Below, one piece after another: positions 556-44,995 of a DNA stretch of 64,000 bases (position 1 is the first letter of the stretch; each line of letters starts with the position of its first letter). The stretch is from Lingula anatina (taxonomy: Eukaryota > Animalia > Brachiopoda). A program made the translations under genes and the position numbers. The stretch covers positions 21,824,001-21,888,000 of the forward strand of contig CM120646.1 of NCBI GenBank assembly GCA_051362555.1, written 5' to 3'. The notes below the pieces were generated by a model, which ran no database searches, had not been told where the DNA came from, and saw nothing but the letters and a program-made list of their open reading frames with translations.

Positions 556-1000
556 CTTGGCACTGTTAAAGTCACAAAAATTATCTGTAGAATTATATAT
601 TCCAAATGTAATATAATTATTGTGAAAATGGTATCCAGAGTAAGTAGATGAATGTGTGTATTTTTCAGTATTGCTTATTACATTCTAACAAATCTGTAAC
701 AAGCGTGACAGATACAAAAGAAGGTATGAAATCTTAGAAATCATCATATTCAGTCTATAACCAAAAATATATACCTTGTCTTATGCTGTGATTTATGAGA
801 CTGACCACATATTATATAATATTGAAATGTAATATGGCTTACTGATTTGAACATTCAGAAAATGATTATGTGCATGAGTACAGTAAGTGTAAGATATAGT
901 TTAGTCTTGGGTGTCTTTCATGATAATTTTTATGTACAGACACATGTGTCTGTACATAAAGCTGTTACCTGCGTCTGCTGACACCTTGCACTTTCACCAA

Positions 1001-1417: not shown

Positions 1418-2509
1418 ACCAATAACACAATTAGTGGAAAACCATTTTACCTTTTGGCTTTAAACTAACAGGACTGATAAATATTCATTATATGCAGGCC
1501 AAGCTCGAAAATCAGCATGATCAGGCCATTTTTATGGAAGTTATGCTGTTTTTTCACTTTTTTAGCATATGTGCAAAACCCATAACACGATAAGTGAAAA
1601 ACTGTTTTACCTTTTGGCTTGAAACTTATAGTACAGAACTGATGAGTATTCATAATACGCAGGTCAAGTTCGAAAGTTTTGGTGAAGATATGCCTTTTTT
1701 TTTTTTTTTTTTTTTTTGTAAAAGTTTTTTTTTCCTCAGATTTAATTCTAAGGCATGTTAACAATCTCACTTTTGAACTAATTAGATATATAAAGGTATT
1801 CTTTTGACATTTTCTGCATCATAACAATATTGTAAGTTGATTATATAAAAATGATTAGTAAACCTGTTATTGTATATTTTGTAATAAAGTGTCAAAATGG
1901 AAATAAACTCATATCTTTACAGTTTGTCAGATGTTCAGAATCTCAGAATGGAGCAAATTGGACATTTAAAATTGTTCTATTGATATTTTTCCTATGTCAA
2001 CAATTTTGTTAGTTGAGCATTTAAAAATTACAATAAATTGATTATTTTATTTTATTGAAAAAATGTTGAAAATGGAAAGAAAATCATTTCACTACAGTTA
2101 TTTCTTGTTTACATTTTGGCATTTTGAAGGTGTGACTGAAATTCCATGGCCTTGAAGACCTTGCCATGTCACATTTTCTGAATATCCATGATACTTTTAT
2201 TTTATTTTTAAAAATTGATGGTCATTATGCTGTTAAGCATTATGTAATATTGCATCAAAATTGAAGACAACCCTATTTTGGGCACTGCCTCCATAGTGAT
2301 CATTAAAGGAAAACCATGTCACTTACTTTTCTCAAACTTATAGAAAAGTAGCATAGGACTTATAAATAGCTTCAGTAGGAAAATCTGTCTAATCGGTTAA
2401 CTTTTCTGGAAATATTATAGTTTATTATAAGAATTATAATTTTCACATATCGACATTTTCAAGGTGTGACTTTGAACTTCTACTGTCTTGAAGACTTTTA
2501 CTTTATTAT

Positions 2510-3210
2510 TTCAGTCACAATAAATCTTTATTTTGGCCAGAAATTGGATTTTCCTGGAGTAAATGGCAATTTTCCCCTACTTACCAATGGTCAACGACCC
2601 CATTCCTGATTTATAGTTAGTCCGGGGTATTTTTTTCCTAAAAGTTTGTTATTTTTTTCCTTTTTTATTTTTGTTAAAATCTCTTAAGAGTCTTTAACAG
2701 ACAGAGCCCTCTCTGACACTGCATAGTCATGTGATATCGAGCAAGATTTTCTGGTATCCTACTTCAATCTGCTGGAAAAGCAGACAACAACAACATTATG
2801 TAACAATAATATAAGATTCATAAGATATATTCGTCTTATTGCTCAAAATGCATTTATATCTGCAACATGTGCAGTTCTGGGCTTTTCGTTATCCAACGCT
2901 CTGTACAAAAACTTGCAACTTGTGTCTGAGGATTGCATCACACGTCTGCCTTCTTATGCCGCCTTGTGTTATTTTGGTCTCGAATGAACTTGAGAATCCG
3001 CATGACACCCCAACGTCATTGGCTACGGATGCCTTGACGGCTGGGAAGAAAGACATTGAAAGCCTTATTATATATTGACAAGCACAGATTATAGTTTTAC
3101 TACAATAACAGCTGTTTTAGTGGTAATATGCAATTTAATATATTTCCATGCATTGTTTACAATGTATTTCTTGAGAAATTTTGAATCTCAAAAGAAGAGT
3201 TATTATTGCT
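2510..3210. mobile_element. Kolobok-like non-autonomous element (left end degraded)
   Basis: Right end gaagagttattattgct-TTAA. The body (ttttggccagaaa..., aaaatctcttaagag) is shared with 12528-12740, 43217-44494 and 62980-63200. Confidence 0.5.
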
Positions 3211-3306
3211 TTAAAAATTGGTCATTATGCTGTTAAGCATAATGTTATATTGCATAAAAGTTGAAGAAAAACCTATTTTGGACACTGCTGCCAGGATGAC
3301 CATTAA

Positions 3307-3517
3307 AACCCCCTTTACACTGGACTGCGTCCTTTGTGCGATCATGAAATCGGCATTGCTGTGGTTGTAAAAAGGAGGCACAAGCATCACTTTGGTTGCA
3401 GAATGAATGCTCAATGATCGGCCAGTTGTCAGCACATAATATATTATTATTTTTAACTCTTAAAGCGGGTCCGCACTACGGGACGCAGAAAGGACGCCAT
3501 CCAGTGTAAAGGGGGCT
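3307..3517. mobile_element. PIF/Harbinger-type MITE
   Basis: TIR aaccccctttacactgga..gcgtcc / ggacgc..tccagtgtaaagggggct with TAA TSD. It interrupts the host motif gaccattaagggaaaacc. Confidence 0.75.
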
Positions 3518-4142
3518 TAAGGGAAAACCATGTTACTTATGATACTTAAACTTACTGAAAAGTTTCATAGGACTGAAGTGCAGCTTGTTGGAAAATCAAT
3601 GCAATTGTTTTCTGTTTTGGAAGCAGTGCAGTTCTATAGAGTGCTATATGGGGCTACTGTAGATGGATGGTGGTCAGTATGTAATTGTCCCTTGGGTAAT
3701 CACTAGCTAGATTAAGGGCTATTATGTCACTTGCCTTATTAACTTTCAAGTGGCCACTAAATGAGATTACATAAAACACACATTGAGATTTCCCTGGAAA
3801 GTCACATAGGTTTAGCTTTCTTAACTGTGTCACATAATTAGGAATCGGTGATAATTATTCAGGTAAATGTTGTTTAATATTGCAAACAAGTTTACAAAAG
3901 AAAAAAAAATTGTGTAACACCAACATTAATGCTATAGATGAATAACAGTGCCTTATTATTCTCAAACTCAATGGGGTTATTTGTATGTTAATTCAGCTAG
4001 ATTAAAAGTTTGAATAGCAGCTTTATTGGAATTCTTTGTTATGTTTTATTTTTTATTTTTTATGTACAGACACAGATGTGTCTGTACATATAGCAATCAT
4101 CTGCGTCTGTCGTCGCCGTCGTCGCCGTCGCCGTGCACTTTT

Positions 4143-5180
4143 ACCGATAACACGATAAGTGGAAAACCATTTTACCTTTTGACTTGAAACTTGCAGAACT
4201 GATGAATATTCATAATACGCAGGTCAAGTTTGAAAATCAGCATGATCGGGTCACTTTTAGGGAATTTATGCAGTTTTTTCACTTTTTTCAGCATATATGC
4301 AGCACCGATAACACGATAAGTAGAAAACCATTTTACCTTTTGACTTGAAACTTACAGAACTGATGAATATTCATAATACGCAGGTTAAGTTCGAAAATCA
4401 GCATGATCAGGTCACTTTTAGGGAATTTATGCTGTTTTTATGTACAGACACAGATGTGTCTGTACATATAGCCGTCATCTGCATCTGTCGTCGCCGTCGC
4501 CGTCGTTGCCGTCGTCGCCGTGCACTTTTACCGATAACACGATAAGTGGAAAACTGTTTTTTCTTTTTGTTTGAAACTTACAGAAATGATGAATATTCAT
4601 AATACGCAGGTCGAGTTCGAAAATCAGCATGATCGGGTCACTTATATGGAATTTATGCTGTTTTTTCACTTTTTTCAGCATATATGCAGCACCGATAACA
4701 CGATAAGTGGAAAACCATTTTACCTTTTGGCTTGAAACTTACAGAACTGATGAATATACATAATACGGAGATCAAGTTCGAAAATCAGCGTGATTGGGTC
4801 ATTTTTAGTGAATTTAGGCTATTTTTTCTCGTCTTTCAGCATATGTGCAGCACCGATAACACGATAAGTGGAAAACCATTTTACCTTTTGGCTTGAAACT
4901 TACAGAACTGATAAATATTTATAATACGCAGGTCAAGTTCGAAAATCAGCACGATCGGGTCACTTATAGGGAATTTATGCTGTTTTTTCACTTTTTTCAG
5001 TATATTTGCAACACTGATAACACAATATAAGAAAAACAGATTGGCCAATTGTCATTATACTCACAGGAGGGGCCAATCTTACTAAAACGCAGGTTGAGTT
5101 TGAAAATCAGCATAATCAGTTCATTATTTTAGAAGTTATGCTGTTTTTTCACATTTCCTCACATTCAATTCTTAGGCATG
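4143..5180 (+). repeat. ~161-bp Helentron core tandem repeat
   Basis: accgataacacgataagt recurs at 4143, 4304, 4530, 4691 and 4852. Further arrays at ~7870-8340, ~10300-10900, ~45880-46800, ~50045-50500, ~53165-53460 and ~60200-60660. Confidence 0.85.
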
Positions 5181-7047
5181 TTAACAGTCTCATTATTGAA
5201 CTAATAAGATACGTTAAAGTGTTTGTTTGACATTTCCTGCATCTTTACAACATTGTTAGTTGATTTTTTAAAAATGATGGTAAACTTGTTATCATGTATT
5301 GTGTAATAAAGTGTCAAAAATGGAAATAAACTCATATCATTGCAGTTTGTCAGATGCATTCATCCACTATGTTCAGAATCTCAGAATGGAGGAAGTTGGA
5401 CATTTAACACTGTTCTATTGATACTTTTCCCATCTCATCAATTTTCTTCATTGGTCATATAAAAATGGCAGTAAACTGTTTATTTTGTTTTATGTTAAAA
5501 AAGTGTTAAAAATGGAAATAAACCCATTTCAGAACAGTGCTGTCTTGTTTACATTTTGGCATTTTCAATATGTGACTTTGAAGTTCCATGGGCCTGAAGA
5601 CTTTTGCTTGTCACATTTTCTGAATAACCATGATACTAATATTTTATAATTACAAATTGATGGTCATTATGCTGTAAAACATTATGTAATATTCTATCAA
5701 AATTTGAAGAAACCCCTATTTTGGGCACTGCTCCCATGATGACCATTTAAGGAAAATCATGTCACTTACTGTTCTCAAACTTACAGGAAAGAAACATGGG
5801 ACTAAAATACAGCTTCAGTAGGCAATGCAGTCTGTTTGGTAAATTTTTCTGGCAATTAAACAGTTTTTTGTGAAAATTTAATTTTTCACATATTGGCATT
5901 TCCAAGGTGTGAATTAGAACCTCCACGGGCTTGAAGACCCATGCTAGTCACATTTTGTGAAAATTCATGACACTTATATTTTATTAATAAAAATCGATGG
6001 TCATTATGCTGTTAAGCATTATGTAATGTTGCATCAAAATAGAAGAAAACACAATTTTTGGTGCTGCTGCCTTGATGACCATTATGGGAAAACCGTGTTA
6101 CTTATGACTGTCAAACTTTCAAAAAAGAAACACAGGACTAAAATGCAGCCTGAGTTAGAAAAACAGTCTAATTGGCTTCTTTTTCTGGAAGTTATACATT
6201 TTAGTGTAATATTCATTATCTTTTTGGCATATTCATTGTGGGACTCGGAGCTCCCATGGACATGAAGCCAAATGGTAATCATATTTTCTACATGTCCATC
6301 CTATTTATATTCAATAAACAAAAATTGGTGATAATTATTCTCTAATTTATTATGTAATGTTACATCAAAATTGACAACAATCTTTTTGCACTGCTACTGC
6401 AAACATTATGAAAAGAAAACTGTGCCACTTATTATAATTTTAACCTTACAAGTACGATTTTTAGGATTGGCCTTCAGCTCATGAGAAAACCAGCTCTATT
6501 GGATTATCATGTTTATTGTATTTATGCATTTTTTGTGAAATTTTCATTTTTCTCATTCTGGCACTTTCTAAGTATAAACTTGAACTCTGATGGGCCTGGA
6601 GCCTTATGCTTTTACTTTCGTCTGTGTGACCTGTTGTGCATAAGTTGATGTTGACTGTGCAGTTAAACATAATGTATTATTGCATCAGGATTGGTAGTCT
6701 CCTATTTTGGGCATTATGGTTTTGTGCTTTTCTTAAGGTGTGACTTATGGGCCTGAAGACCTTTGAGTGGGTCAGTCTGTAAATTACCCTTGGGTATCAC
6801 TAGATTAATTTCAGAGTTATAAAGTCATTTGCTTTAATAGGCCATTAAATGAGATTACGTAAAGCACACTCGTTGATATTTCCCTGTAAACTCCCAAAGG
6901 TAAAGCTCTCTGCTAGATTAATAATAAGGAAGCAGTGATAATTATGCAGGTAAATTTTGTTTAATATTGCAAATAAGTTTTAAATATATATATATATATC
7001 AAACTGGAAGATTAAAAGTTTGAATAGCATCTTCATTGGAATTATAT

Positions 7048-7284
7048 TTACCTCAAGCTCTGCCAAGGAGGTTATATTTTCACCCCTGTTTGTCTGTCAT
7101 CCACATAACACAAAAAAGTTATGGACCGATTTTGCAGAAATTTTCAGGAACTGTCGGAAGTGGGCCAAAGAGGACAATGATTAATTTTTGGTGGTGGTCC
7201 GGATCAATAATCAATCAATTATCAATAATAATCAACAATTGCTGCCTTGGCAGAGGTCTGCACTCTCAAAGTGCTTTTCTAGTT
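7048..7284 (+). mobile_element. Second, short HINE-type (Helentron) family
   Basis: ttacctc..tgccaaggaggttat ... gccttggcagaggt + ctgcactctcaaagtgc hairpin + ttttctagtt. A second copy sits at ~49411-49596 in the same host position. Confidence 0.65.
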
Positions 7285-7515
7285 TTGTTGTTTTCCTTTA
7301 TAATTTTTTCTCAAACACTTGCATTTGTGACTTTTAACTCTCATCTGCCTGGGGCTCTGCACATTTTCTGTATTTCTACATAAGCAGTTGTATTGTTTTT
7401 TATGTCTTTAAACATTATGTAATATTATTTTATGCACTGTCATCATTTTTCAAATATTGAGACTTTCATAATGTGAATTTGAACTCTTATGGTCCTGAAA
7501 CTGTAATCTTATTGA

Positions 7516-7681
7516 AGGGGTGGATTGAGACCATCTTCTGGGTCTTCCGGAAGACAGTCAGGTTATTAAGTTTATATTGACTGGTATCTATTTTTTTCTG
7601 TTGGAAGACCATCAAAATGGAGGATGGATCAACATAGATACTTTGTAATACTGTCAGAAAATATCTCTGGGTCTGCTCCTG
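7516..7681. mobile_element. Degenerate hAT-like MITE
   Basis: aggggtggatt ... gggtctgctcctg flanked by TTATTGA(C) direct repeats. Uninterrupted host copies read aatcttattgaccatg. Confidence 0.55.
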
Positions 7682-8718
7682 TTATTGACCATGTTACCTG
7701 TTGTGCAAGATTAAAATTCAGTGTTGACTGACAGTGCTATTATAAGCATTATTTATTATTGCATCAAAATTGACAAAATGACCTTTTTTGCATCTTTATT
7801 TTCTGTTTTTTGTCTGTACATTTGACAGCTTTGCTGCCTTGTTTCACTTTTTTCAGCATATATGCAGCACTGATAACACGATAAGTGGAAAACCATTTTA
7901 CCTTTTGACTTGAAACTTACAGAACTGATGAATATTCATAATACGCAGGTCAAGTTCGAAAATCAGCATGATCGGGTCACTTTTAGGGAATTTATGCTGT
8001 TTTTTTTCACTTTTTTCAGCATATATGCAGCACCGATAACACGATAAGTGGAAAACCATTTTACCTTTTGACTTGAAACTTACAGAACTGATGAATATTT
8101 ATAATCTGCAGGTCAAGTTCGAAAATCAGCATGATTGGGCTATTTTGAGGGAATTTATGCTGTTTTTTCACTATTTTCAATATAAATGCAACACTGATAA
8201 CACAATATAAGAAAAATGGATTGGCCAATTGTAATTATACTCACAGGAGTGGTCAATCTTACTAAAACGCAGGTTGAGTTCGAAAATCAGCATAATCGGG
8301 CCATTATTTTAGAAGTTATGCTGTTTTTTTCACATTTCCTCAGATTCAATTCTTAAGCATGTTAACAGTCTCATTATTTAACTAATAAGATGCCTAAATG
8401 CCTATTTCCTGCATCTTTACAACATTGTTAGTTGATTATGTAAAAAAACATGGTAAACTTGTTATCGTGTATTGTGTAATATAGTGTCAAAAATGGAAAT
8501 AAACTCATATCATTGCATGTTCAGAATCTCAGAATGGAGGAAATTGGACATTTAACACTGTTCTATTGATATTTTTCCCATCTCATCAATTTTCTTAGTT
8601 GGTCATATAAAAATGGCAACAAACTGTTTATTTTGTTTTATGTTAAAAAATGTTAAAAATGGAAATAAACCCATTTCAGAACAGTGCTGTCTTGTTTACA
8701 TTTTGGCATTTTTAAGAT

Positions 8719-10060
8719 GTGACTTTGAAGTTCCATGAGCCTGCAGACCTTTGCTAGTCACGTTTTCTGAATATCCATGATACTAATATTTTATTATTAA
8801 AAATTGATGGTCATTATGCTGTTAAACATTATGTAATATTGCGTCAAAATTTGAAGAAACCCCTATTTTGGGCACTGCTCTCATGATGACCATTTAAGAA
8901 AAACCATGTCACTTACTGTTTTCAAACTTATAGGAAAGACATGGGGCTAAAATACAGCTTCAGTAGGCAATGCAGTCTGTTTGGTAATTTTTTCTGGCAG
9001 TTAAACAGTTTTTTGTGAAAATTTAATTTTTCACATATTGGCATTTTCAAGGTGTGACTTTGAAGTTCCATGAGCCTGCAGACCTTTGCTAGTCACGTTT
9101 TCTGAATATCCATGATACTAATATTTTATTATTAAAAATTGATGGTCATTATGCTGTTAAACATTATGTAATATTGCGTCAAAATTTGAAGAAACCCCTA
9201 TTTTGGGCACTGCTCTCATGATGACCATTTAAGAAAAACCATGTCACTTACTGTTTTCAAACTTATAGGAAAGACACATGGGGCTAAAATACAGATTCAG
9301 TAGGAAATGCAGTCTGTTTGGTAATTTTGTCTGGCAGTTAAACAGTTTTTTGTGAAAATTTAATTTTTCACATATTGGCATTTTCAAGGTGTGACTTTGA
9401 AGTTCCATGAGCCTGCAGACCTTTGCTAGTCATGTTTTCTGAATGTTCATGTGACTAATATTCCATTATTAAAAATTGATGGTCATTATGCTGTTAAACA
9501 TTATGTAATATTGCATCAAAATTTGAAGAAACCCCTATTTTGGGCATTGCTCTCATGATGACCATTTAACAAAAATCATGTCAATTACTGTTCTCAAACT
9601 TACAGGAGAGAAACATGGGTCTAAAATACAGCTTCAGTAGGCAATGCTGTCTGTTTGTTAATTTTTTCTGGCAGTTAAACAGTTATTTGTGAAAATTTAA
9701 TTTTTCACTTATTGGCATTTTCAAGGTGTGACTTTGAAGTTCCAAGATCCTGAAGACCTTTGCTTGTCACGTTTTCTGAATGTCCATGTTACTAATATTC
9801 TATTATTAAAAATTGATGGTCATTATACTGTTAAGCATTATGTAATGTTGCATCAAAATAGAAGAAAACACAATTTTTGGTGCTGCTGCCATGATGACCA
9901 TTATGGGAAAACCTTGTTATGACTGTCAAACCTTTAAAGAAGAAACACAGGACTAAAATGCAGAATGAGTTGGAAAAGCAGTCTAATTGGCTTCTTTCTA
10001 TGGAAGTTATACATTTGAGTGAAATATTCATTATCTTTTTGGCATATTCATTGTGGGACT
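8719..10060 (+). repeat. ~336-bp tandem repeat x4 within the Helentron body
   Basis: gtgactttgaagttcca starts at 8719, 9054, 9391 and 9728. Confidence 0.85.
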
Positions 10061-12939
10061 CGGAGCTCCCATGGACATGAAGCCGAATGGTGATCAAATT
10101 TTCTACATGTCCATGCTATTTATTGTCAATAATCAAAAATTGGTGATAATTATTCTATAATTTATTATGTAATGTTACATCAAAATTGACAACAATATTT
10201 TTGCATTGCTACTGCAAACATTATGAAAAGAAAACTGTGTTACTTATTATTATTTTTAACTTACAAGTATGATTTTTATGTACAGACGCCGTGCACTTTT
10301 ACCGATAACACGATAAGTGGAAAACCATTTTGCCTTTTGATTTGAAACTTGCAGTACTGATGAATATTCATAATACGCAGGTCAAGTTCGAAAATCAGCA
10401 TGATCGGGTCACTCTTAGGGAATTTATGCTGTTTTTTCACTTTTTTCAACATAACTGATCAATATTGTTCATAGCACCGATAACACGATAAGTGGAAAAC
10501 CATTGTACCTTTTGACTTGAAACTTACAGAACTGATGAATATTCATAATATGCAGGTCAAGTTTGAAAATCAGCAAGATCGGGCAATTTTTATGGAAGTT
10601 ATCCTGTTTTTTTTTTTTTTTTTTTTTTTTTCAATTTTTTCAGCACTTTTGTAACACCGATAACTTGATAAGTGTAAAAATGTTTTTCCTTTTGGATTGA
10701 AATTTACAGAACTGGTGAATATTTATAATACGCAGGTCAAGTTTGAAAATTGGCGTGATTGGACTATTTTAACAAAAGTAATGCTGTTTTTTTCCTTTAT
10801 TCAGCATACATGCAACACTGATAACGCATTTTAAGGAAAACCAATCAGCCTTTTGTCTTGCAACTCACAGGAGTGATCAATCTGACCAGTATACAGATCA
10901 AGTTTGAAAATAAGCTTGATCAGTTAAGTTTTGATGAAGTTATTAGCCTTTTTGTATATAAGTGGTTTTTTCTTCAGATTTAATTCTTAAGCATGTTAAC
11001 AGTCTCATTACGGAACTAATTGGATATGTAAAAGTGTTGTTTTAACATTTTCTGCTTCTTAACAATATTGTTAGTTGATTATATAAAAATGACGGTAAAC
11101 CTATTATAGTGCATTGTGTAATAAAGTATCAAAAATGGAAAGGAACTCATCATTGCAGTTTGTCAGATCCAATCATTCACTATGTTCAGAATCTGTGAAT
11201 GGAGCAAATTGGACATTTAAAATTGTTCTATTGATATTTTTCCTATGTGAACAATTTTCCTAGATGATCATTTAAAAATGACAGTAAATTGATTATTTTG
11301 TTTTATGTAAAAAGGTGTTGAAAATGGAAAGAAAATCATTTCAGTACAGTTATCTCTTGTTTACATTTTGGCATTTTGAATGTGTGACTCTGAACTTCCA
11401 TGGTCTTGAAGACCTTCCCAAATCACATTTTCTGAATATCCATGATACTTTTATATTTTTTTTTTATAAAAAAAATTGATGGTCATTAAGCTGTAAAGTA
11501 TTATGTTATATTGCATGAAAGTTGAAGAAACCCATATTTTGGACACTGCTGCCAGGATAGCGATTAAGGGAAAACCATGTTACTTATGATACTCAAATTT
11601 ACTGAAAAGTTCCTAAGACTGAAGTGCAGCTTGTGTTGGAAAACCATTGTGATTGTTTTCTGTTTTGGAAGCAATGCAGTAGAGTGCTATTTGGTGCAGT
11701 TCTATAGAGTGAACTATGGTGCAATAAATGTATATGGATAGTAGGCAGTTAATTCAGGGTTATAAAGTAATTTGCTTAATTGATTTTCAAGTTATTTCAG
11801 GGTTATAAAATAATTTGCTTAATTGATTTTCAAGTGGCCATTAAATGAGATTACATAAACACACATTGAGATCTCATTGTAAAGTCCCATAGGTTTAGCT
11901 CTCTTAACTGTGTCACATAATTAGGAATCGATTATTATTATGCAGGTAAATGTTATTTAATATTGAAAATAAGTTTACAAAAGAAAAATTTTGTGTAACG
12001 CTTATATTAATGCTAAAGATGAATAACAGTGCCTTATTATTCTCAAACTCAATAGGGTTATTCATATCATGTTAGTAATTGTACAGCTAGATTAAAAGTT
12101 TGAATAGCAGCTTTATTGGTATTTTTTGTTGTTTTATTTTAAATTTTCTTTTAATTTTTTTTTCAAACACTAGCATCTTCAAGATGACACTTTCAACTGT
12201 CATCCACCAGAAGCGCTGTGTATTTTGTTTTTCCACATTAGCAGTTGTGTTGGTTTTTATGTCTTTAAACATTGAGTAATATTATTTTATGCACTGTCAT
12301 CATTTTTCACATATAGGGATTTTCATTGTGTGAATTTGAACTCTCACATATGGTCCTGAAACTGAATCTTATTGACCATGTTATTCTGTTGTATATATTT
12401 TTGAAATTTTTATCTTTTACCTACTGGCATTTTCAGTGTGTGACTTATAACTCCCAAGGGTATGTAACAGTTCACTTTTATTGATACTACCTGTTGTGCA
12501 ATATTTGCAACTTGACTTTACAGTTAAAGGGATAATAACTGTTCTTTTTTGGCAAATAATTTTTTTTCTAAAAAGTTTTTTTTTTTTGTTAAAATCTCTT
12601 AAGAAATTATTACAAAGTATAGCCACCTATGGAGGTCACATGGTCTGATGACAAGTTCAGATATCAGAATAATAGCTATGACTGCCCTTTTTGTGGTAAA
12701 ACAAAATATATTATATTTCTGTGACTTGTTTACACTGTTTAAACTGAAGTTGGATGATTCATATCATGGTTATGCAGCTAGACTGAATTGAGCTTTAGTG
12801 GAATATTTTTGTAATTTTTTCTTTAATTTTTAATTTTTCAAACTGGCATTTTCAAGATGTGACTTATCACTCCCATCCACCAGGAGCCCTGTACTGTAAC
12901 TTTGTAACACTTTCTGTATTTTTTTAACTTACAAGTATG

Positions 12940-13045
<106 letters not shown>

Positions 13046-13130
13046 GAGTTTAAGCAATGAGTTTAAGAAATTTTCACTTTATCTCATTCTGGCATTTCCA
13101 AAGTTTAACTCTTATCACCCTCAAGCCTTA

Positions 13131-13350
13131 GGGACTATTTCCAGACCCTATCACGCAAACTGTGGATCAATGTATCTCCAAGGGAATTCTCGCTAAATTG
13201 CAATCAATGTAAGTGGCTTAGCTGTCTGTCACGCCTACTGAAACTGGCATGCCAGAATCCTAAGCCGCTTAAACTGAAAGCAATTTAGTGAGAAACCCCT
13301 TGGAGTTGGATTGATCCTGTTAGATTGATCTAGGTATGGGAACTCAGTCT
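13131..13350. mobile_element. Harbinger-like MITE
   Basis: gggactatttccaga ... tatgggaactcagtc flanked by TTA/TAA. A related copy lies at ~28131-28409. Confidence 0.5.
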
Positions 13351-13970
13351 AATGCTTGTTACACATTTTACTTTCGTCCTAATTCAATGTTATGCAGAAT
13401 TAGAATTTGATGTTGGCTATGCAGTTACAGTAAGCATAATACATTAATGCATCAAAATTGACAGTATCCTATTTCCTGCGCTTTTTTTCTGTTTTTTGTC
13501 TGTACATTTGACAGCTTTGCTGCCTTGTTTTCATTATTTTTTCAAACGCTAGCATCTTCAAGATGTGACTTTTAACTCCCATTCACCAGAAGTTCTGTGC
13601 ATTTTCTGTATTTCCACATGAGCAGTTGTATTGGTTTTTATGTCTTTAAACATTATGTAATATTATTTTATGCACTGTCATCATTTTTCACATATTGGGA
13701 TTTTCTTTATGTGAATTTGAACTCTCATATATGGTCCTGAAACTGTAATCTTATTGACCATGTTACCTGTTGTGCATGATTAAATTTTAGTGTTGACTGT
13801 GCTGATATAAGCATTATTTATTATTGTATCAAAATTGACAGAATGACCTATTTTCTGCATCTTCATTTTCTGCTTTTTGTCTGTACATTTGACAGCTTTG
13901 CTGCCTTGTTTTTCATTGCATTGACAATGCCATTTTGAAGTAAAGATTAGGATCTGCATTATTAATATAG

Positions 13971-14219
13971 GTTATGCAGCAATAGATGAGATTTCAAATG
14001 ATACCCAGTTGCAAGTAGGAGATGCCTTTACATTGGTCTGCAATGTATCCGGGAATCCTACACCAAATGTGACGTGGGTGAAGGATGGCACTGTAAAGTC
14101 TACCACATATCAACTTCAACTACTGCATGTTACTGAGCAAGATGAAGGTTGCTATATGTGCATAACAACTATTGATAGTGCAGTCACTGCAAATAGAACA
14201 GTGTGTATACATGTTCAAG
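13971..14219 (+). CDS. Gene A exon: membrane-proximal extracellular Ig (I/C2-set) domain
   Basis: tag|GT...CAAG|gtaaa, 249 nt, phase 1-1. Translation includes FTLVCNVSGNPTPNVTWVKDG...DEGCYMC (canonical C-W-C) and several N-x-S/T sequons. Confidence 0.9.
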
Positions 14220-15246: not shown

Positions 15247-15357
15247 GTGTGATAGATGGTCTGACTACAGGACAGATTGTGGGAATAGTAATCGCAGTTA
15301 TTGTAGTAGCTGTTATTGGTATTGTTATTGTTGCCATCGTCATATATAAGAAACCTA
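15247..15357 (+). CDS. Gene A exon: transmembrane helix
   Basis: ttttcag|GT...CCTA|gtaagt, 111 nt, phase 1-1. GLTTGQIVGIVIAVIVVAVIGIVIVAIVIYKKP, with positive charges C-terminal to the helix. Confidence 0.9.
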
Positions 15358-15974
15358 GTAAGTTGTTAAAAGGTAAAGTTGAACACTTAATTAATGGTGC
15401 AAAAAGCACTTAACCATTTTAGTTAACGTCATTGTGCATTTTGTTATATTTGTTATGTCTGGATAAAAAAAAATACTAGGCAAGGGAAAGTTCTGATAAA
15501 AATGCTTTTTGAATAAATTAACTTTAATTTGTAATACTAAAAGTAGCATGTTGATCAGATTAAATATTCTAAAAACAGACATATCACACTTTAATGTAAT
15601 TTGTATTTGATTATATTATTATATATAAGCAAAATATATGCAGTGTTACTCATTATTAAATTGCAAATCATCTGTTTACAAATAAGGCATTACATCCTAT
15701 TTTACCAACACTAAGACATTTATTACACATAGATAAACTAAGTTTATTTCTGCTTAAATACCGATTGCATCTATTGGCAGCACACAGTGCAGTTTTAAAT
15801 GTTGCTTATTTCATGATCGATGCCAAATTAATATGGAATGATAATGTATAAATATGTCTAAATCTTTCAAAAATAGCAGTGCGAATAGCTGACTATGAAT
15901 TTTTGTATGAAACTTGTGTTGCTCTGTTGCTTCAAAAGGCCTTTCCTGTTAACTTATTTTTTCAGTTCCCTCAG

Positions 15975-16152
15975 GTCATAGATCCTGCCCCTCTAGTGAA
16001 ACCGTTATTCTTGAACCAACCGAAAAAGAAATAGAGAAAAATGTTGGTGACTTTTTGAAGGTGATTGCTAATGTGAAAGACAAAACAGCCAACCAGCAAA
16101 TGGAGGTCTCCTGGTTTGATCCCAATGAAAGAAAAATTAACTCTGATTCAAG
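15975..16152 (+). CDS. Gene A exon: post-TM Ig-like domain 1, first half
   Basis: ctcag|GT...TCAAG|gtaca, phase 1-2 (an in-frame alternative acceptor lies 9 nt upstream). SETVILEPTEKEIEKNVGDFLKVIANVKDKTANQQMEVSWFDPNERKINSDS. Confidence 0.8.
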
Positions 16153-16450
16153 GTACAGTGTAAAAATAAGAACAAATGCATAAGCTTCTTTAAATAAATT
16201 GATACATACGGTAGAACTGATAACTATGTAATATGGTGTGTGTGTGGGGGGGGGGGGGGGCAGTTGTCTGAGCTGTGATTCACCTGGGTGTCATTATTAA
16301 GTTAGATTTGTTGATCCAGACTTTTTTGTTTAATTGATAGGACTGTAAGAAGGTATTCATGACCAAGCATTTTATTATAACAGAAACATAAACTTTATAA
16401 GCTATGCCATTGTTAGTTTTGTCAAAACATGATGTGTTGCGATCTTTCAG

Positions 16451-16593
16451 TAAATCAGGTATATCTGGAGAGGATGGCTGTTTGACTATCCAAACCATCA
16501 AGAAGGAGCTTGGAGGGAAATATATTTGTAGATGGAAGAGATGTGTGGAGGATCCAAGTGGAGAAATGTCTTTTGTTTTAAAGGTTGCCTCTG
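16451..16593 (+). CDS. Gene A exon: post-TM Ig-like domain 1, second half
   Basis: ctttcag|T...TCTG|gtatgt, phase 2-1. KSGISGEDGCLTIQTIKKELGGKYICRWKRCVEDPSGEMSFVLKVAS. Confidence 0.8.
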
Positions 16594-17098
16594 GTATGTA
16601 ATTCTCTCAAACTTTCTCTTTATGTAAGAGATAATGTTAACGTACAACCTTATGATTATCAGTGGAATTATTTTTCAATAAAAACTTAAGTGCGAGACAC
16701 CCTGTGCGATACAGGAGCAGTGATATCATATTGTTAAGTAGTTATGTTATGGTCCTTTGACTCCCTGACAAGGTCCATTGTTAGTACCTTTAATTTATGT
16801 TGAAACTAGCCAAAGCAGTAAATTTTAAATACTGGTTATTTTGTGACAATCTAAAAAAAAAACAAACTAGCAGTGCAAATAGCTAATTATAAATTTTATT
16901 TAATGTTGAATGTCACAGTGTGTTTCATTTTAAGTAGATAATCTCTGAAACTTCACAAGTGCAAGGATGAGTTATTTTTTAGGAGTGCACAAAATGAATT
17001 AATCTTTCAACACCACTTGGTTATATGAAACTTGTTTTGCTCTGTTGCTTCCTGACACAGCGGTCTTTTCTGTTAACTTCTTTTTTACATTATCCCAG

Positions 17099-17276
17099 GT
17101 AATCGATCTTGCCCCTGTAGTGAAACCCTTATTCTTCAACCAAGCGGAAAAGAAATAGAGAAAGATGTTGGTGACACTTTGAAGGTGATTGCAACTGTGA
17201 AAGACAAAACAACCAACCAGCAAATGGAGGTCTCCTGGTTTGATCCCAGAGGAAGGGCAATAAACTCTGATTCAAG
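17099..17276 (+). CDS. Gene A exon: post-TM Ig-like domain 2, first half
   Basis: Paralog of 15975-16152 with the same length (178 nt), an open frame and intact AG/GT. Confidence 0.78.
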
Positions 17277-17552
17277 GTAAATTGTGAAAAAAAGAATAAA
17301 TGCATGAGCTTCTTAAAATAAATTGATACATTGAACTGATAACTATGTACATATGCTAGGGGGGGTACAGTTGTTTGTGATTTACCTGGATACCATTAGT
17401 AAGATATGTTGAACCAGATTTTTTTGTTTAATAGATAGGACTGTTATTGAGTTATTCATCACCAAGCATATTATTATAACAGAAACATCATTAACTTTAT
17501 AAGCTATGCCATTTTAGTTTTGCCTAAACATTGATGTGCTGTGATCTTTCAG

Positions 17553-17695
17553 TAAATCAGGTATATCTGGAGAGGATGGCTGTTTGACTATCCAAACCAT
17601 CAAGAAAGAGCATGGAGGGAAATATATTTGTAGATGGATGAGATGTGTGGAGGATCCAAGAGGAGAAATGTCTTTTGATTTAAAGGTTGCCTCTG
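17553..17695 (+). CDS. Gene A exon: post-TM Ig-like domain 2, second half
   Basis: Paralog of 16451-16593 (143 nt) with an open frame and intact AG/GT. Confidence 0.78.
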
Positions 17696-20734: not shown

Positions 20735-21700
20735 CACTAGTGGGCTGGATATGGTCTTAAAGTGCAATTTAAGATAACTAGTTATCTTATGCGATCTTAA
20801 TCATTATAGCAGTAGTCTTAAAATGGACTGAATCTGCTTTTAAGTTCAAAAATGGTCAAACATCTACTTAAGTGGTCAAGCAGTTTCTTCCCCTCATAAT
20901 GGGGGACACCTCCTCTCACAATAGAGGACACCTCTGCTCTCAATAGGAGAATGTGTAAGGGGAGACAACTAAATTGGCTGTTAGACTAGAAATGGTCTTA
21001 GACCCCATTTCCAGAGATTAGATCTCTGGGTGTTCACGCTAAATAGCTGTCAGCCGAGCGGACACGAAAGTTAATTACTCCCTTACAGCTTGTAGTAGGC
21101 GGGACGGACAAGCCAAGCCAACGAGTATAAGTGTTCTACTTATTCATCCAACATGGATCCAGAGTCCTTCATCACTTTGGAAAATGAATGTTTGAAGATA
21201 GTTATTACAGCTCATTTTACCTTACAGATGTGTTTGATCCATTTCATGCCTTGTAGTTTTATGTAAATATTTGATTATATGTTAGACCCACAAATTATTC
21301 CTGAATTTAGAGTGAGAAACATAGATATTTGATTCTTAGATTGTTACATACAGGGAAGGCAATGCATTGGAACTTTAGATATTATATATTGAGAGACGTT
21401 GCAGGAGGACTGCAAATGTCCTCTTTACTTCTTATCTAATGTTGACTTAATTTGCATAACACAAAATTTGTCAGTGCTACAAAAGAAACCAAGATACTTT
21501 CTGTAATGTTGCATACTTTTATATTTAATGGGACTAAGCTTGAAAAAAGCCGGATTATCTGACAGTAATCTAGTGAGACTCCCCGTGGGGATAGACCGAT
21601 CTAAAAGCTCTGGGAATACAGCCTTGCTCGTGGTTTAAGTTCATGTAAGACAATCTGTGATCTTAAATTGCACTTTAAGATCAAATCAAGCCCACTAGTG
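20735..21700 (+). mobile_element. CACTA-type MITE with a nested Harbinger-like MITE (21001-21623)
   Basis: cactagtgggc/gcccactagtg termini with TSD CCG. The inner element reads gaccccatttccagag ... ctctgggaatacagcc. Confidence 0.8.
21115..21550 (+). repeat. 436-bp local duplicate of 24387-24822
   Basis: Aligns by eye with about 6 substitutions. AAGC(C) microhomology at both junctions. Confidence 0.9.
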
Positions 21701-23750: not shown

Positions 23751-26489
23751 CGGCTGTTTTTATTTAGTTGCAGCAGCATACCTGGAAGGACAGTGAGCCC
23801 TGGGTGTGACCTCTGTGTAGGTACATCAGTCTGGGCATAACTCTATAAAACTGTGCAGACCATTCCTTGTTACACAGTAATCTGCTTGGCAATGTCTGCA
23901 TATGTCTTTTTTGAGCCATTCTGGCACAAATTAACAATTTTATAAAACACTGCTTAACTCATTTTGAGCACTGCAAAACCAATCACTTGCATGCGAAATG
24001 TCAAATTCTTATATGCAGTAGTAGCCTACATATGGATACTTTTTTGAGAGAACCATGCTTCGCCAAAGCCAAACTTAGACCAGCCCAAAGGTGCACCAGC
24101 CATTTAAATCACTGCACAATACATAATGCAGCAGTGCAGCAGACATGGTAGTCAGTTAATTGATAGTGACCCACCTGACCACACACTTATCCATTCATAT
24201 TATATCTTATATAAGATCTGAGTTTTTTTTTTTTTTTTTATGAAGAACACATTTTACTTAGGCATACCTTTGAAACTGAACTATTCCATATTAAATGTCA
24301 AGTCTAAATATATATTAAAGAAAGACGCACTTTGAATAAATTTGGTATTATATTTAAAGTTAACATCAATGTTTTGTAGGTGGAGGAAGCCAACGAGTAT
24401 AAGTGTTCTACTTATTCATCCAACATGGATCCAGAGTCCTTCATCACTTTGGAAAATGAATGTTTGAAGATAGTTATTACAGCTCATTTTACCTTACAGA
24501 TGTGTTTGATCAATTTCATGCCTTGTAGTTTTATGTAAATATTTGATTATATGTTAGACCCACAAATTATTCCTGAATTTAGAGTGAGAAACGTAGATAT
24601 TTGATTCTTAGATTGTTACATACAGGGAAGGCAATGCATTGGAACTTTAGATATTATATATTTAGAGATGTTGCAGGAGGACTGCAAATGTCCTCTTTAC
24701 TTCTTATCTAATGTTGACTTAATTTGCATAACACAAAATTTGTCAGTGCTACAAAAGAAACCAAAATACTTTTTGTAATGTTGCATACTTTTATATTTAA
24801 TGGGACTAAGCTTGAAAAAAGCAAGTGGAACATACAAGGTATTGAAGTATGGTATATTATTCCAAGTCAGAAAGTAAAAAAGTTTTATGGCCTTTGAAGT
24901 AACTTGAGGAGCCATCTTCAAAAATAATTCAAGGTATGCAGTCAGATTATCACGTTTCCTTCCTAGTAGAAATTTTTTGAAATTGCTTAAAGACAAATAA
25001 ATTTGGTTGAAACAAATGGGTTGCTGTAGTATGGTGAATTAATACATGATGGCTATACTCTTCATACATAGTGTACATGTTACTGCAGATATATAAATTG
25101 CATTATAGCTGTATTCTAATTTGAAATTATATTAACTCATGGTTAGGCATGTTAAATTTTAGTAGAAATAGTTTGTCCATATTTTGTGTTTGATCAAACC
25201 ATATGCAGTGTTGATTTTTATGAATTGTGAATCAAAAATTTGCCAAATTGGGGGAAAAGAGTTGAAAATTAGTGTCAGTTAAATATATGGGTCATACTTT
25301 TGAGGACAAAGTAATCGACTTAGATGGTTATTTTACGTACAGGTACTATATTTTTCATTAGTTATATAATTTTATAAAACAATACTTGAAGGTGCTCTTT
25401 TTATCAATACATTTGATTGCTTTACTATTTTCTTTAAGTCTAACACATTTTCAATTGCCTAATTTCTTTGACTCAGTTCAGCTTGCTTTGTGATCTTAAC
25501 AGTAATACTAATTTTGATACGTTTTACCTGCTTTCATACTAAAAACTTACACTTTTACAATTGTATGGTTTATATTCTGTATGTCTGCCTTTGTGATTTA
25601 ATCATCTGACCCTCTTTATTTTTAAAAAATTATGGGTGTCAAAGGATTAACAAAGTGATTTATTGTTTGTTTTAAAATGCATTAGAAAGATTAGAGAAGG
25701 TGCTAAAAGCTGCCACTTGCCTGTTTGTTTGTAAAATTTTCTGATATTCTATGTGTAAATTACCTTTTTTTTCTTTCTGTGCTATAAGTTCAGGGTGAAA
25801 ATAAAGAGATGCGTTTTGAACAATGTCATTATTAATAGCTAAAGCTAATGTCTGCAGTAACTTTCATCATACTGATCACATAGTTATTAAAATAGTTGCA
25901 TCTGTGACTTTAGAATAATTGCTACTCTGTTGGCATATCTGTGCTTTAAACACTTAAATTAACATCAAGTAATTTAGAAATTGTTTTGAAGGTATTAAAC
26001 TAAATTTCAAATTGTCATATTTTGTATTAGGTATATCGTTGTAGGGATTTAATATGTTGTTTTTCTTTTTAAATGCTGTATTTATAAAATTGAATAAAGC
26101 ATTGCTAGCTAGAAAATACACTAAAATCTCACCTAGGTAGATAACCACCAATCTGCTTGGGTTAGGATGGTCAACTGTGGCATATGTATTGCTTTAATTT
26201 ATAGATATATCACATAAATGTCTCATAAAATGAAGTAAACTAGCATAGTTATCTGCTAAGATAATTATGTCTTGATAGAAGCAGGTGTGTACTTTTTTTT
26301 ACAATTTTTTCCTAATGAATGATTTAGTTTTGGTCACTCTTTATCAATACACAAATTTAACCCATGCAAATCATTTTATTCCATGTTACTTCATATTTTC
26401 GATGTCATGTAGCATATGTTAAAATGATCGAATAAAATGATTTTGTAATATTTTTAATTGTACTTCCAAATATATTTCCATTATCTTAG

Positions 26490-26550
26490 GTGGAAATGGC
26501 TGCAGTGAAATCCATCATTATGAAAACACTGTTTCGCCTGATACAGAAAA
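26490..26550 (+). CDS. Gene A exon: cytoplasmic tail with Tyr motif
   Basis: tcttag|GT...GAAAA|gtaagt, phase 1-2. GGNGCSEIHHYENTVSPDTE(K). Confidence 0.75.
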
Positions 26551-26984: not shown

Positions 26985-27072
26985 GCGCAAAAAGAAAAAG
27001 AAGAAGAAAGAACTAAAACCAGAAGTTCAGAGGGTAGCTGTCCCAAGGAAGCTTCCACCTTTACCAAAGTGA
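26985..27072 (+). CDS. Gene A last coding exon
   Basis: ttttatatacag|G, phase 2. RKKKKKKKELKPEVQRVAVPRKLPPLPK-stop (TGA at 27070-27072). AATAAA downstream at ~27324. Confidence 0.75.
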
Positions 27073-27527: not shown

Positions 27528-29855
27528 GTATTATATAGTTCTCATGAACAAGAGGCCTTACTTCACTTGTTTAATAATCCATGATTTTATTATTGTGATC
27601 ACCATTGTTTATTTTTTATTATTTTCTTCATTATAATTTATTAAAGTTTTTTTTATCTTTTTAATGTTTATTTATTTTTTAGTCTAGGATTCCTAGTGCA
27701 ATATAATCTTTCTTCAACTGCACAAAATTGTAATTATTTGTTTTCTGTAATTTTATCATTCTTATAATCAGTCTGCATATATTTGAAGAAAAGCTTTTGA
27801 TTTCTTGTGATATATATCTTTATATCAGATTCTGTAAGATGTCTTATTTTCTCTAATTTTTTTGTGAATTTGTTTTCTAATGTACACATGCATAGTTAAA
27901 CAACAGGATGATAACTATCAGGGTATTTTTTTCATTTCTACTTAACTGTTTTCACTGTTACTTAACAAGAGTATCTGTGAATCTGTTCTGTTTTATAGCA
28001 AGACCACCAATTAGTGAAAGATCTTATAAAGAGGTTATTCATTCAATAACTTTGGCTGTGGTATAATGGTTTGCCTGATATTATTGGAATAAAACTAGTA
28101 AGACTATTTATGAAAGGAATATTGCAGCTAAGACTGTGTTACCAGCCATAACCCTATGGTACTAGCAGGATTGATCTATATCAGCTGGTATTCTTGCTAA
28201 GGTGCAGTCATTGTAATCAGCTTAATTGTCTGGCACACCCCTTTGCAAAGCAACATCAACAACATCATAGACTACAATTTTTTCCCAATATAAGTTACGA
28301 GGGGCTGTGCCAAACATTTAAGCCTGCTTAAACTGAATGCAATTTGGGGAGAATCCCCCAGGAGTTAGATTGATCCAGCTAGTCCGATAAGGTTATGGGA
28401 AAGGTCCCTAAAATGGTCTGTCATTATTGTATATGTACAAATATACAGATGTAGATTATGACTTTTAAGCACATCAGTTACATATCAGGTGTATGCTGCA
28501 TATTGGATTTTAAATTGGATTGTCATGGAATTCTGCATAAATGTGTGCACTTTACAGCGTGGTTACTTTTAATATCAGTTATTTTTAATTTATAGAATGG
28601 AAGTGGTTTTGATATACAAAAGTCATCATAATGAAAAAGAGAACTTTTCTATCCTGATCACAGTCGGGTTCTACTGTTGGTTAGTGTAATTTATGTGTGC
28701 ATGAATTGAGAGGAGTCTCTGAGGCTAGTTTGCTGTCAGCAATTTCGTGAATTTCTTCAATTACAGCAGAATAAGTTGTTAGTTGAAAATGTCATTTTAT
28801 TGTCATTTTGATTAATACACAAATTACGAATTCAAATACATATAGTTAAATAATATCATATGAATGATACTCATGTATGGTAAATGATTTACAATTTTCA
28901 GATTAAAATTTTACGTTTCAGCAAAGATGGAGGGAAAAAAGGGCCAAAGATACAGACTATTCACTGTTAGTGTAATTTACCTCATACACAGCCATCTGGC
29001 ATTTCGTTTTTCATGTCTAGGAAATTAATAGCTTTCAACTGTAAATATTGTGCTTTACAGGCAGAATGAAAATTCATGTGAAGATGTATATGAAGTTGTA
29101 ACTGATAATAATAATACATACTGTTTTTGTCTCAAGTATTGTTTTTACACTGTTGCACTAATTACATAATACCCTCCATTTCAGATATCCAAAAACTAAC
29201 ATTTTATTCACTACTGGATTAATCACTCTTGTCTATTGTGTAATGCTTTGGTGGATATTATTTGACCAAAATTTTTGAGAGATATGGAAAAAAAATCTAA
29301 TCATTTTCTTGAGATATCCATTTCATATATGAAACTTAAGGTAACTGTCAGTGTTTGCCAAAATTTCCTTATTTACTGCCCAACATGCATTATTTTTAAT
29401 AAAAAATAAATCTTCAGATCTCAGTGAATTAATGGAAAAATCTTTCTCAAATTTCTTTACCTGAGCACTTATGAACACTGTTTCAACACCAGTTTAATGA
29501 CACTATAGGTAGTTCTTCAAAACCCTGTCATCAATTTTCATAAAATCTCTAGATTTTATTGCTGATAAAGCCAAATAATGCCTTTGCTCAATGAAAATCT
29601 GTAGTTATGGCTCATCATTCCATAATAAAAATATTTAAACCAAAATGACCCCACAAGGTTGAAGCCCATACACTTGTGGTCAAGTGTTCCAATTTTCGTA
29701 ATATTTTCTTCCAAAAAGAATGAAGTTACGTCCCATGCTGATTACTGTATCGCATCAAAACAGCTGTGTAATTGGCATTAAATGCCATGTGGCTACTTTT
29801 ATGGCAGCTAAAACATTTGACAAGAGTACCTGTTTACAGCGTTTTCAAACAACCG

Positions 29856-32027: not shown

Positions 32028-32093
32028 TAAGATCTAATATATCCGTTTATTAGATCTTAGGTAAGATGTACGTAAGATGTGAGTAAGATGTAC

Positions 32094-35000: not shown

Positions 35001-35981
35001 TAACACTAGAGTAAAAAATTGGTATTCTGAACAAATCAGGTCATTTTTTTCAAGAAATATTGGAGCAGTATCCATGCAATATATACCACGCCACGACCAA
35101 GATGTTCAAGAATCTAAACACACCAAATTTTTTTATAATCTTGCATTTGAAAAGTACAAAAAGCGGTAAGGCTTTTGGCCGTAACAAGCGTAACACTTTT
35201 TGATCGGAACTCATGAAAATTGTCAATTGTCGTATCCAAGCTAGACCACATGTAAAATCGCAAAAAAAAAAAAAAAAAAACAATACTGCTCAAGCAAGTG
35301 TGTTGCACACATAACAATTAGTTAAATTTTATGACTGTCATGTGACACAAGTTTTAAAAAGTAGGAGGAAAATGTCTTTTGGAGTAATTTTTTTTTCGAA
35401 ATATTAACAAGATGGCGGCTTAAGCATCTGCTTGTTATTCGGCTACTGAAAGTGCACCTAAGTTTTATTCTTTGCTATTGCCACAAATTACTTAACATTT
35501 GCAACTGTATAAAGACCAAACTTTCTTCATCTGATACTATATTTATAGGCACTTGTTATGAGTGGGAAATATTTTTCGTGCAATATTTATTCTCCACACA
35601 CCACCTCGCGAGATCAACGTGTAGCTGGACACTTACACAGTGAGACCCTACGACATAAAAGTTGCAATTTATCTTCATATTTCGTGTAGTTATGCATTTA
35701 AAAGCACTTACCTGTTTTTTGAAAACCTTGTCCAACGTAATATCATATAAATTATGTATTTCTCTCATTTTTTAGAAACTTGGGACTCCGTTTCTGTTTC
35801 TGTCCTCAAAAATCAACAGACGAAGGCACAGATACCAACAAACGAGATTTAAAGGAGAGTAATTAAGCGTAACAGAGATAGGCATCCATTGTTCTCTGGG
35901 TTCTATTCATTCCGACCAATGAGAGACCGTAATACGGGCTCCGCCCCCACGCGTGTAATCTCCTTCTGTTATAACTCCTTG
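32094..35981 (-). mobile_element. Non-autonomous P-superfamily DNA transposon, copy 1 (3888 bp)
   Basis: Perfect 31-bp TIR CAAGGAGTTATAACAGAAGGAGATTACACGC. 7-bp TSD GATGTAC (32087-93 and 35982-88). No transposase ORF. Confidence 0.85.
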
Positions 35982-36340
35982 GATGTACGTAAGTCGGCAT
36001 TGTCCTTTAGCCTACGGATTTTCACACAATTCTTTTGTCCTCTTAAGGGGCGTACGTAAGACAAGTTAATCGTTTTTGAAGTAAGCATATCCGTAATGGC
36101 ATCTTCTCTGCACAAAACATCACGATACTGAGTATTTGTATCTTTTTCATTCAGGTATAACATAATGCTGTCTTGCTGGGAGGAAGATCCGCGCTTTTTT
36201 GTTGTCCGCAAATTACGACGTTTTGTCTCTAGTGAAATTTGAAGAGAGACTGTAAGTGGATCTTGATCACAGACCAGACGAAAAGTGCTAAGAGACATGT
36301 TAGTTTAGTCAAGGAGTTATAACAGAAGGAGATTACACGC

Positions 36341-44494: not shown

Positions 44495-44548
44495 TTAATT
44501 TCAATAGTAAAAACTACTGACCTGTATTATAGCCGTATTCTTTTCCAG

Positions 44549-44938: not shown

Positions 44939-44995
44939 GTAAATCCGGCAGTTGTAGATGTTGCAGATTCTTGTAAAATATTTAAAATTCTTGTA

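What the first reader, a model, noticed from the sequence alone, without database searches (positions are those of the whole stretch)
15247..17695. Type-I Ig receptor with two Ig-like domains on the CYTOPLASMIC side of its single TM
Seen: the TM exon (ending YKKP, phase 1) is followed by four exons with perfectly chaining phases (1-2, 2-1, 1-2, 2-1). They encode two Ig folds (VILEP..VGD-LKVIA-V..VSWFDP..LTIQTI..GGKYIC..SF-LKV), which then chain in phase into a Tyr/SH3-motif tail. The B-strand Cys is Ala in both, so there is no canonical disulfide. Sequons are nearly absent (0 and 1, versus several in the extracellular Ig), and the domains are Lys-rich, all as expected for cytosolic domains. 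Established: IgSF receptors almost always keep Ig domains extracellular, and NCAM Ig domains are split over half-domain exons. The VSWFDPN motif recalls NCAM Ig1 ISWFSPN. Inference: an NCAM/Fas2-like Ig module was co-opted as an intracellular signalling or scaffold domain, giving an apparently unusual receptor architecture.
Basis: partly seen in the sequence, partly recalled or inferred. Interest (0 to 1): 0.8.

Follow-up and report, generated by a model that had tools for sequence, protein, structure and literature searches.

The report
Receptor with Ig repeats inside cell
A cell-surface receptor gene, likely from a lamp shell (Lingula), carries two recently copied antibody-like (Ig) modules after its only membrane-spanning segment, and RNA reads show them spliced, so they are predicted to sit inside the cell, which is unusual for such domains.

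Summary
The five exons are real: AG/GT ends, chained phases, one open frame. The neighbouring gene points to a lingulid brachiopod. After the only hydrophobic segment come two 106-residue modules, a recent tandem duplicate (89/106 identical). They are Ig-like by sequence and lack the B-strand Cys. RNA of the same species label shows the within-module splice (60 reads) and a module-to-module splice (71 reads, from divergent copies). The decisive TM-to-module joint is shown by only 2 reads, perhaps one molecule, from a divergent allele or paralog. It probably uses donor 15372, not 15357. Module-to-tail and skip joints could not be seen. The NCAM origin and the sequon argument are not supported. 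Modules are 4-5 times deeper than the TM exon in two runs, so longer arrays or other loci exist. One expressed copy is frameshifted, and dN/dS between the copies is about 0.9. Best reading: a shuffled, copy-variable Ig module read as a cytosolic spacer or docking array. Function is untested.

The parts
669..723 (+). candidate upstream exon (phase 0-1), possibly the end of an ectodomain module
   Evidence: AG/GT ends and in-frame chaining to 13971; no RNA laid here; weak
13971..14219 (+). membrane-proximal extracellular Ig exon, canonical Cys-Trp-Cys, 4 sequons
   Evidence: Pfam Ig_3 E 3e-13; sequons above chance, P 0.005; depth about 20 and 26 in X8 and X9
15247..15372 (+). TM exon; donor at 15357 or, more likely, 15372 (same phase)
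   Evidence: the X7 bridging letters match 15354-15372 at 12 of 19 (compared by hand); depth 15 and 28 in X8 and X9
15975..16152 (+). module 1, first half-exon (predicted strands A-C)
   Evidence: X2 depth fits a read spanning 16152>16451
16451..16593 (+). module 1, second half-exon (Ig E-F-G motif)
   Evidence: weak Pfam Ig hits; RNA joints
17099..17276 (+). module 2, first half-exon
   Evidence: joint 17276>17553 in 60 reads of 4 runs; four strands in the half-domain model
17553..17695 (+). module 2, second half-exon
   Evidence: PDB sequence hits are Ig-superfamily chains; 1-nt deletion at 17639 in 11 of 20 X9 reads
24380..26300 (+). candidate alternative last exon: stop after 7 codons, then about 1.9 kb of likely 3' UTR
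   Evidence: acceptor and frame; coverage over 24757-26307 mainly in X8 and X9, with 1- and 4-nt indels in the region; the joint itself was not seen
26490..26550 (+). tail exon 1 (phase 1-2) with a YENT motif
   Evidence: bin covered in X8 and X9
26985..27071 (+). tail exon 2: Lys run and RKLPPLP, then stop (or a weak donor at 27068 to a candidate exon at 29061)
   Evidence: depth 33 and 30 in X8 and X9, in-frame 3-nt insertion in 12 of 30 X9 reads

Best explanation
This is a single-pass Ig-superfamily receptor gene in which a two-exon Ig-like module lies after the transmembrane exon in two recent tandem copies, is spliced into mRNA, and is therefore predicted to form a cytosolic array that likely acts as a spacer and protein-docking unit ahead of the tail. 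Shown: exon structure, duplication, splicing among module exons, one TM-to-module joint in a divergent copy. Inferred: the module begins and ends in phase 1, so it could enter the phase-1 intron after the TM exon without breaking frame (exon shuffling) and then be amplified by unequal crossing-over; copy number probably varies between alleles or paralogs. The stop-transfer TM leaves it in the cytosol, where loss of the B-strand Cys costs nothing. The transcript likely ends either in a 7-residue stub (24380) or in a Tyr/Pro-motif tail (26490, 26985). Folding, topology in cells and partners are untested.
For: Open frame over all exons. No indel in 321 coding bases between the copies against 14 gap events in 485 aligned flanking and intron bases; Poisson P about 1e-4. 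Joints: 17276>17553 in 60 reads of 4 runs; the same joint onto the first copy's second exon in 60 reads of 3 runs; module-to-module in 71 reads of 3 runs. X2 depth (600 bases) fits four 150-base reads spanning 16152>16451, 16593>17099 and 17276>17553 with 5 bases of error, and X2 carries the window's letters at the 4 places listed. 2 X7 reads join the TM exon to a module in frame. Upstream Ig, TM, modules and tail rise and fall together over runs X3, X7, X8, X9. One hydrophobic segment; net charge -1 before and +2 to +5 after. No phase 1-1 exon candidate in the introns between TM and modules. Joined modules score 15.2 and 16.3 bits on a 7-domain Ig profile against a best of 8.9 among 1000 shuffles, 931 scored. 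The two half-exon peptides assemble with weak support: score 0.36, best of 3 controls 0.02, runs agreeing in at least 89% of contacts, partner pLDDT at least 64; that mark was reached by 51 of 78 solved and 2 of 108 mismatched pairs, at 0.60 or under by only 5 of the 78 and by all 4 mismatches that passed, and split halves can pass by likeness to solved folds.
Against: The TM-to-module joint rests on 2 reads that may be mates of one fragment, from a copy with many differences; it was not seen for the window's own haplotype. Module-to-tail and TM-to-tail joints were hidden: 78 joint rows and 205 bridging rows not shown. Module depth is 4-5 times TM depth in X8 and X9, so many module reads may come from other loci whose topology is unknown. 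dN/dS between copies is 0.86 on 6 synonymous and 20 nonsynonymous changes, and the first half-exon is as diverged as the intron. 11 of 20 X9 reads at 17639 carry a frameshift. The modules keep N-terminal and FG-loop Cys like the extracellular V exon of the neighbour gene, which suggests an extracellular origin. No Pfam family reaches its cut-off for any half-exon. The gene's 5' end and signal peptide lie outside the window.
Confidence: 0.6

Rival explanations
1. The modules are tolerated passengers: copies of an exon pair from another Ig gene that landed in frame after the TM exon, are included only in some transcripts and are drifting without a function.
For: dN/dS 0.86; first half-exon 88% identical, like the intron; frameshift in an expressed copy; in-frame skip possible; very low expression in 5 of 7 runs laid; no homolog found among 1.84 billion representatives.
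Against: No coding indels against 14 non-coding ones; second half-exon more conserved than the intron, P 0.004; splice sites kept in both copies; joints abundant in X8 and X9; a divergent copy also joins TM to module, so the arrangement is older than one haplotype. dN/dS near 1 on 26 changes is also seen in diversifying receptors (general knowledge).
Confidence: 0.25
2. Most module transcripts belong to another gene or start site, nested here or elsewhere, where the modules are extracellular or secreted; the TM-to-module joint is a minor by-product.
For: Module depth 4-5 times TM depth; extra Cys that could pair outside the cell; most X7-X9 reads differ from the window by 5-14%.
Against: No signal-peptide-like first exon of 13 or more codons with a hydrophobic core in 15358-15974 (the stricter filter missed the neighbour gene's real signal exon, so the unfiltered list was read); low intron coverage there; Lys-rich make-up unlike the extracellular exons; modules co-vary with TM and tail across runs.
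Confidence: 0.1
3. The protein has the opposite topology (the TM acts as a signal-anchor), so the modules are outside the cell.
For: The signal peptide was not seen, as the 5' end is outside the window; the modules carry 4-5 Cys.
Against: Basic residues follow the TM; the upstream Ig has the canonical Cys pair and 4 sequons, above chance; the Tyr and Pro motifs would end up outside.
Confidence: 0.05

Closest known systems
Integrin beta4 cytoplasmic domain (PMC4388270, passages seen)
   Same: Single-pass type I protein with folded beta-sandwich modules (four FnIII plus Calx-beta) on the cytoplasmic side, used for docking.
   Different: FnIII, not Ig-superfamily domains; old and conserved, whereas this array is recent and probably copy-variable.
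AjNLR-new of Apostichopus japonicus (PMC13133943, passages and section 4 seen)
   Same: An invertebrate membrane receptor reported to have an intracellular Ig domain that recruits Fidgetin and binds actin.
   Different: Two TM segments and a NACHT domain; topology there rests on TMHMM and indirect binding assays. Here one TM, Ig on both sides, no NACHT seen.
IGSF1 (PMC9162367, passages seen)
   Same: Ig domains on both sides of a TM segment in the primary sequence, made by duplication.
   Different: An internal signal sequence puts both Ig sets in the ER lumen; no second hydrophobic segment precedes the modules here.
Cytosolic Ig proteins (titin, MyBP-C, myotilin, palladin; named in PMC13133943 passage)
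   Same: Ig folds working in the cytosol as protein-binding units.
   Different: Soluble cytoskeletal proteins without a TM segment.
Lingula anatina XP_013390183.1 (P0003)
   Same: Close relative of the neighbouring gene (90% on the 45285-45557 exon); shows tandem near-identical Ig repeats in this lineage.
   Different: No TM in the model and no match to the post-TM modules.

Membership tests
Ig-superfamily domain (I/V-set) | Profile similarity over the whole domain | tested here: met
   15.2 and 16.3 bits against a shuffle maximum of 8.9; second half hits Ig chains in PDB, best E 4e-4; below Pfam cut-offs
Ig-superfamily domain (I/V-set) | C-strand Trp and F-strand G-x-Y-x-C | tested here: met
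   both align; the usual Asp before the motif is absent
Ig-superfamily domain (I/V-set) | B-strand Cys forming the B-F disulfide (common, not obligatory; recalled) | tested here: not met
   Ala aligns with the Cys of the upstream Ig exon
Ig-superfamily domain (I/V-set) | Two-sheet beta-sandwich fold | tested here: inconclusive
   Half-domain model has four strands but no Ig match; a true Ig exon also folded poorly alone, pLDDT 45; two-peptide assembly weak; the whole spliced domain could not be folded
Type I single-pass receptor | One TM segment with basic residues on its C-terminal side | tested here: met
Type I single-pass receptor | N-terminal signal peptide | not testable with these tools
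   5' end lies outside the window and no genome is held
NCAM/Fasciclin II | Sequence similarity of the module to NCAM Ig1 | tested here: not met
   No NCAM among 8 and 13 PDB hits up to E 10 for the first half or the 2 hits; second half hits NCAM2 only at E 0.22, rank 12 of 34
NCAM/Fasciclin II | FnIII domains next to the membrane (recalled) | tested here: not met
   The exon before the TM is an Ig domain
NCAM/Fasciclin II | Ig domains split over two exons (recalled; search found no paper) | tested here: met
   not specific, the neighbour-gene and upstream Ig domains are single exons
IGSF1-like internally cleaved proteins | Internal signal sequence between TM and the next Ig set | tested here: not met

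The most novel reading that the evidence does not exclude
Lingulid brachiopods have a polymorphic Ig receptor family whose cytoplasmic side is a copy-number-variable array of disulfide-free Ig modules, with alternative stub or Tyr/Pro tails, so that diversity is generated inside the cell as well as in the ectodomain.
Probability: 0.3. Interest if true: 0.75.

Novelty: new variant of a known kind. Interest (0 to 1): 0.52.

Why it matters
Single-pass receptors with Ig-superfamily domains on both sides of the membrane were not found in eight literature searches (open-licence papers only). If confirmed, this is a young case of an extracellular-type domain moving into the cytosol by exon shuffling. 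It would allow a direct test of how such a domain copes with loss of its disulfide, and of whether array length tunes signalling in an invertebrate receptor family.

Tried and rejected
Word-indexed protein searches with the first half-exon (0 of 21 candidates) and the upstream Ig exon (1 distant fly protein of 22): no close relative, weak evidence. Full HMMER search of 1.84 billion representatives with the two first half-exons: 2 hits, both sums over repeats (a bacterial Big_2 repeat protein and a short motif in a PAN-repeat protein), not homologs. Metagenome scan: 2 loci of 447 stretches; L002 was translated and is unrelated, L001 is a 15-residue match and was not read. Fold searches with the half-domain model: best Foldseek E 0.38, best Z 4.4, no Ig; uninformative. 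The ESM Atlas gave no answer. Earlier findings: none in three look-ups. Sequon scarcity rejected as evidence. A hydrophobic phase 1-1 candidate at 25482-25562 (1 of 5 candidates) lies after the modules, in likely UTR, has no listed splice support and would not change their side. TM read-through into the intron: coverage of the TM bin equals about 100-112 bases at the measured depth, so it is not the main form in X8 and X9 (by hand).

Full report
Setting. The window is AT-rich animal DNA full of repeats; no genome is held. The neighbouring gene (signal exon 42080-42152, V exon 44549-44938, Ig exon near 45283-45558) matches Lingula anatina XP_013390183.1 at 61% and 90%. I infer a lingulid brachiopod.

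Observation. The five exons have AG/GT ends and chain in one frame. Upstream lies a canonical Ig exon, 13971-14219, with 4 sequons, more than chance. The chain from 669 to the tail has one hydrophobic segment, 3.69 against 1.03 for the next window, with net charge -1 before it and +2 to +5 after. No phase 1-1 exon candidate was found in the introns between the TM exon and the modules or between the modules. So if the modules follow the TM in mRNA, they are predicted to be cytosolic.

Are they Ig? The second half-exon gives 34 PDB hits up to E 10, led by Dscam (E 4e-4), CD79a, contactin-2 and VEGFR2, all Ig-type by name, and weak Pfam Ig hits below cut-off. The first half-exon has no Ig hit in PDB. 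Scored whole inside a script against a profile of 7 Ig domains (4 from the window, 3 from P0001), the modules reach 15.2 and 16.3 bits; the best of 1000 shuffles is 8.9 (931 scored); the first halves alone give 2.7 and the second halves 10.5 and 13.0. Trp and G-x-Y-x-C align and Ala replaces the B-strand Cys. AlphaFold2 on the first half gave four strands (pLDDT 80) but no Ig match; a true Ig exon folded alone reached only pLDDT 45, so this is uninformative. The two halves as separate chains scored 0.36 against a best control of 0.02, which the tool calls weak; split halves can pass by likeness to solved folds. Verdict: Ig-like by sequence, fold not shown, NCAM origin unsupported.

History. 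The modules are a recent tandem duplicate: exons 88% and 96.5%, intron 88%, protein 89 of 106. dN/dS is 0.86 (6 and 20 changes). The exons have no indels, against 14 gap events in 485 non-coding bases. Frame is kept; amino-acid constraint is not shown. The unit is phase 1 at both ends, so it can be inserted, multiplied or skipped in frame; the TM exon also reads directly into 26490. No homolog of the first half-exon was found.

RNA. Seven of nine listed runs were laid. (92% likeness): X1 and X4 had no reads on the exons. X2 had 600 bases that fit four 150-base reads spanning 16152>16451, 16593>17099 and 17276>17553 (inferred from depth bins), first mate on minus, with the window's letters at the listed places. 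X7 had 2 reads joining 15353 to 17105 through 25 other letters. By hand, those letters keep the frame, hold no stop, and their first 19 match window 15354-15372 at 12 places, ending at a second same-phase donor. So a divergent allele or paralog splices TM to module, and 15372 is the likelier donor. The two reads may be mates of one fragment. (86% likeness): the within-module joint 17276>17553 in 2, 1, 19 and 38 reads (X3, X7, X8, X9); the same joint landing on the first copy's second exon in 0, 1, 20 and 39; module-to-module in 0, 1, 49 and 21. Upstream Ig, TM and tail exons have similar depth in X8 (20, 15, 33) and X9 (26, 28, 30) and are low in X3 and X7. The TM reads of X8 and X9 carry a 6-base deletion (15 of 15; 22 of 28), so they are not the window's haplotype. 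Repeat-derived rows crowded the tables: the smallest joint shown had 45 reads and 78 were hidden. TM-to-module, TM-to-tail and module-to-tail joints are therefore neither shown nor excluded there.

Further features. First half-exon depth summed over both copies is about 84 and 108, 4-5 times the TM exon: longer arrays or further loci. 11 of 20 X9 reads at 17639 lack one base, a frameshift in an expressed copy. An acceptor at 24380 opens a phase-1 exon that stops after 7 codons, and X8 and X9 cover the following 1.9 kb with frame-breaking indels, which fits a 3' UTR; retained intron is the alternative. The other tail has YENT and RKLPPLP, which match SH2 and class I SH3 ligand patterns (recalled). 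Lys content supports a cytosolic setting; sequon counts do not. The extra Cys at the N-terminus and in the FG loop resemble those of the extracellular V exon next door, hinting at an extracellular ancestor (inference).

Mechanism. Most likely an extracellular-type Ig exon pair was shuffled into the intron after the TM exon, amplified, and is now translated as a cytosolic beta-sandwich array acting as spacer and docking surface (confidence 0.6 for the cytosolic array in a main isoform; the docking role is a guess by analogy). Rivals: tolerated passenger (0.25), module transcripts mostly from another gene or start (0.1), inverted topology (0.05).

Comparison. It would work like the integrin beta4 tail (PMC4388270, passages) or the reported intracellular Ig of AjNLR-new (PMC13133943, passages and section 4). 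It is not IGSF1-like (PMC9162367, passages) and fails two NCAM tests. Passages of a 2025 review of invertebrate IgSF (PMC11999971) mention no cytosolic Ig in a receptor. Eight searches listed no single-pass Ig-TM-Ig receptor; subscription papers, including any Lingula immune-gene survey, were not searched, and no supplements were read.

Verdict. A real, expressed and unusual exon arrangement; new variant of a known kind. The key joint is thinly supported and function is open. Interest 0.52.

Noticed in passing
window 32092-35982 and 36310-40197: 3.9-kb inverted duplication at 99.7% with a 327-base spacer; each arm has 32-base terminal inverted repeats, like two head-to-head copies of a DNA transposon.
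   Followed up: no
window 21115-21550: 98.6% copy of 24387-24822 (start of the candidate last exon) sitting inside a repeat; hundreds of RNA reads of other copies join 21110 to 21547, so they lack it. Looks like a captured gene fragment.
   Followed up: partly
window 42080-52972 and 63540-63929: Second Ig gene (signal, V, Ig, C2-type exons) related to Lingula anatina XP_013390183.1, and a near-identical second V exon (97%); V exons carry extra N-terminal and FG-loop Cys.
   Followed up: partly
window 43269-43901: Open frame resembling a Tc1/mariner transposase fragment (recognised from motifs, not searched).
   Followed up: no
window 29061-29170: Candidate further tail exon with a DVYEVV motif, in phase with a weak donor at 27068; no splice evidence seen.
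   Followed up: partly
window 1418-13917 and 45800-63203: Dense arrays of one internally repetitive, non-coding element family fill the introns of both Ig genes, up to 35-fold self-coverage; they could promote unequal crossing-over.
   Followed up: no
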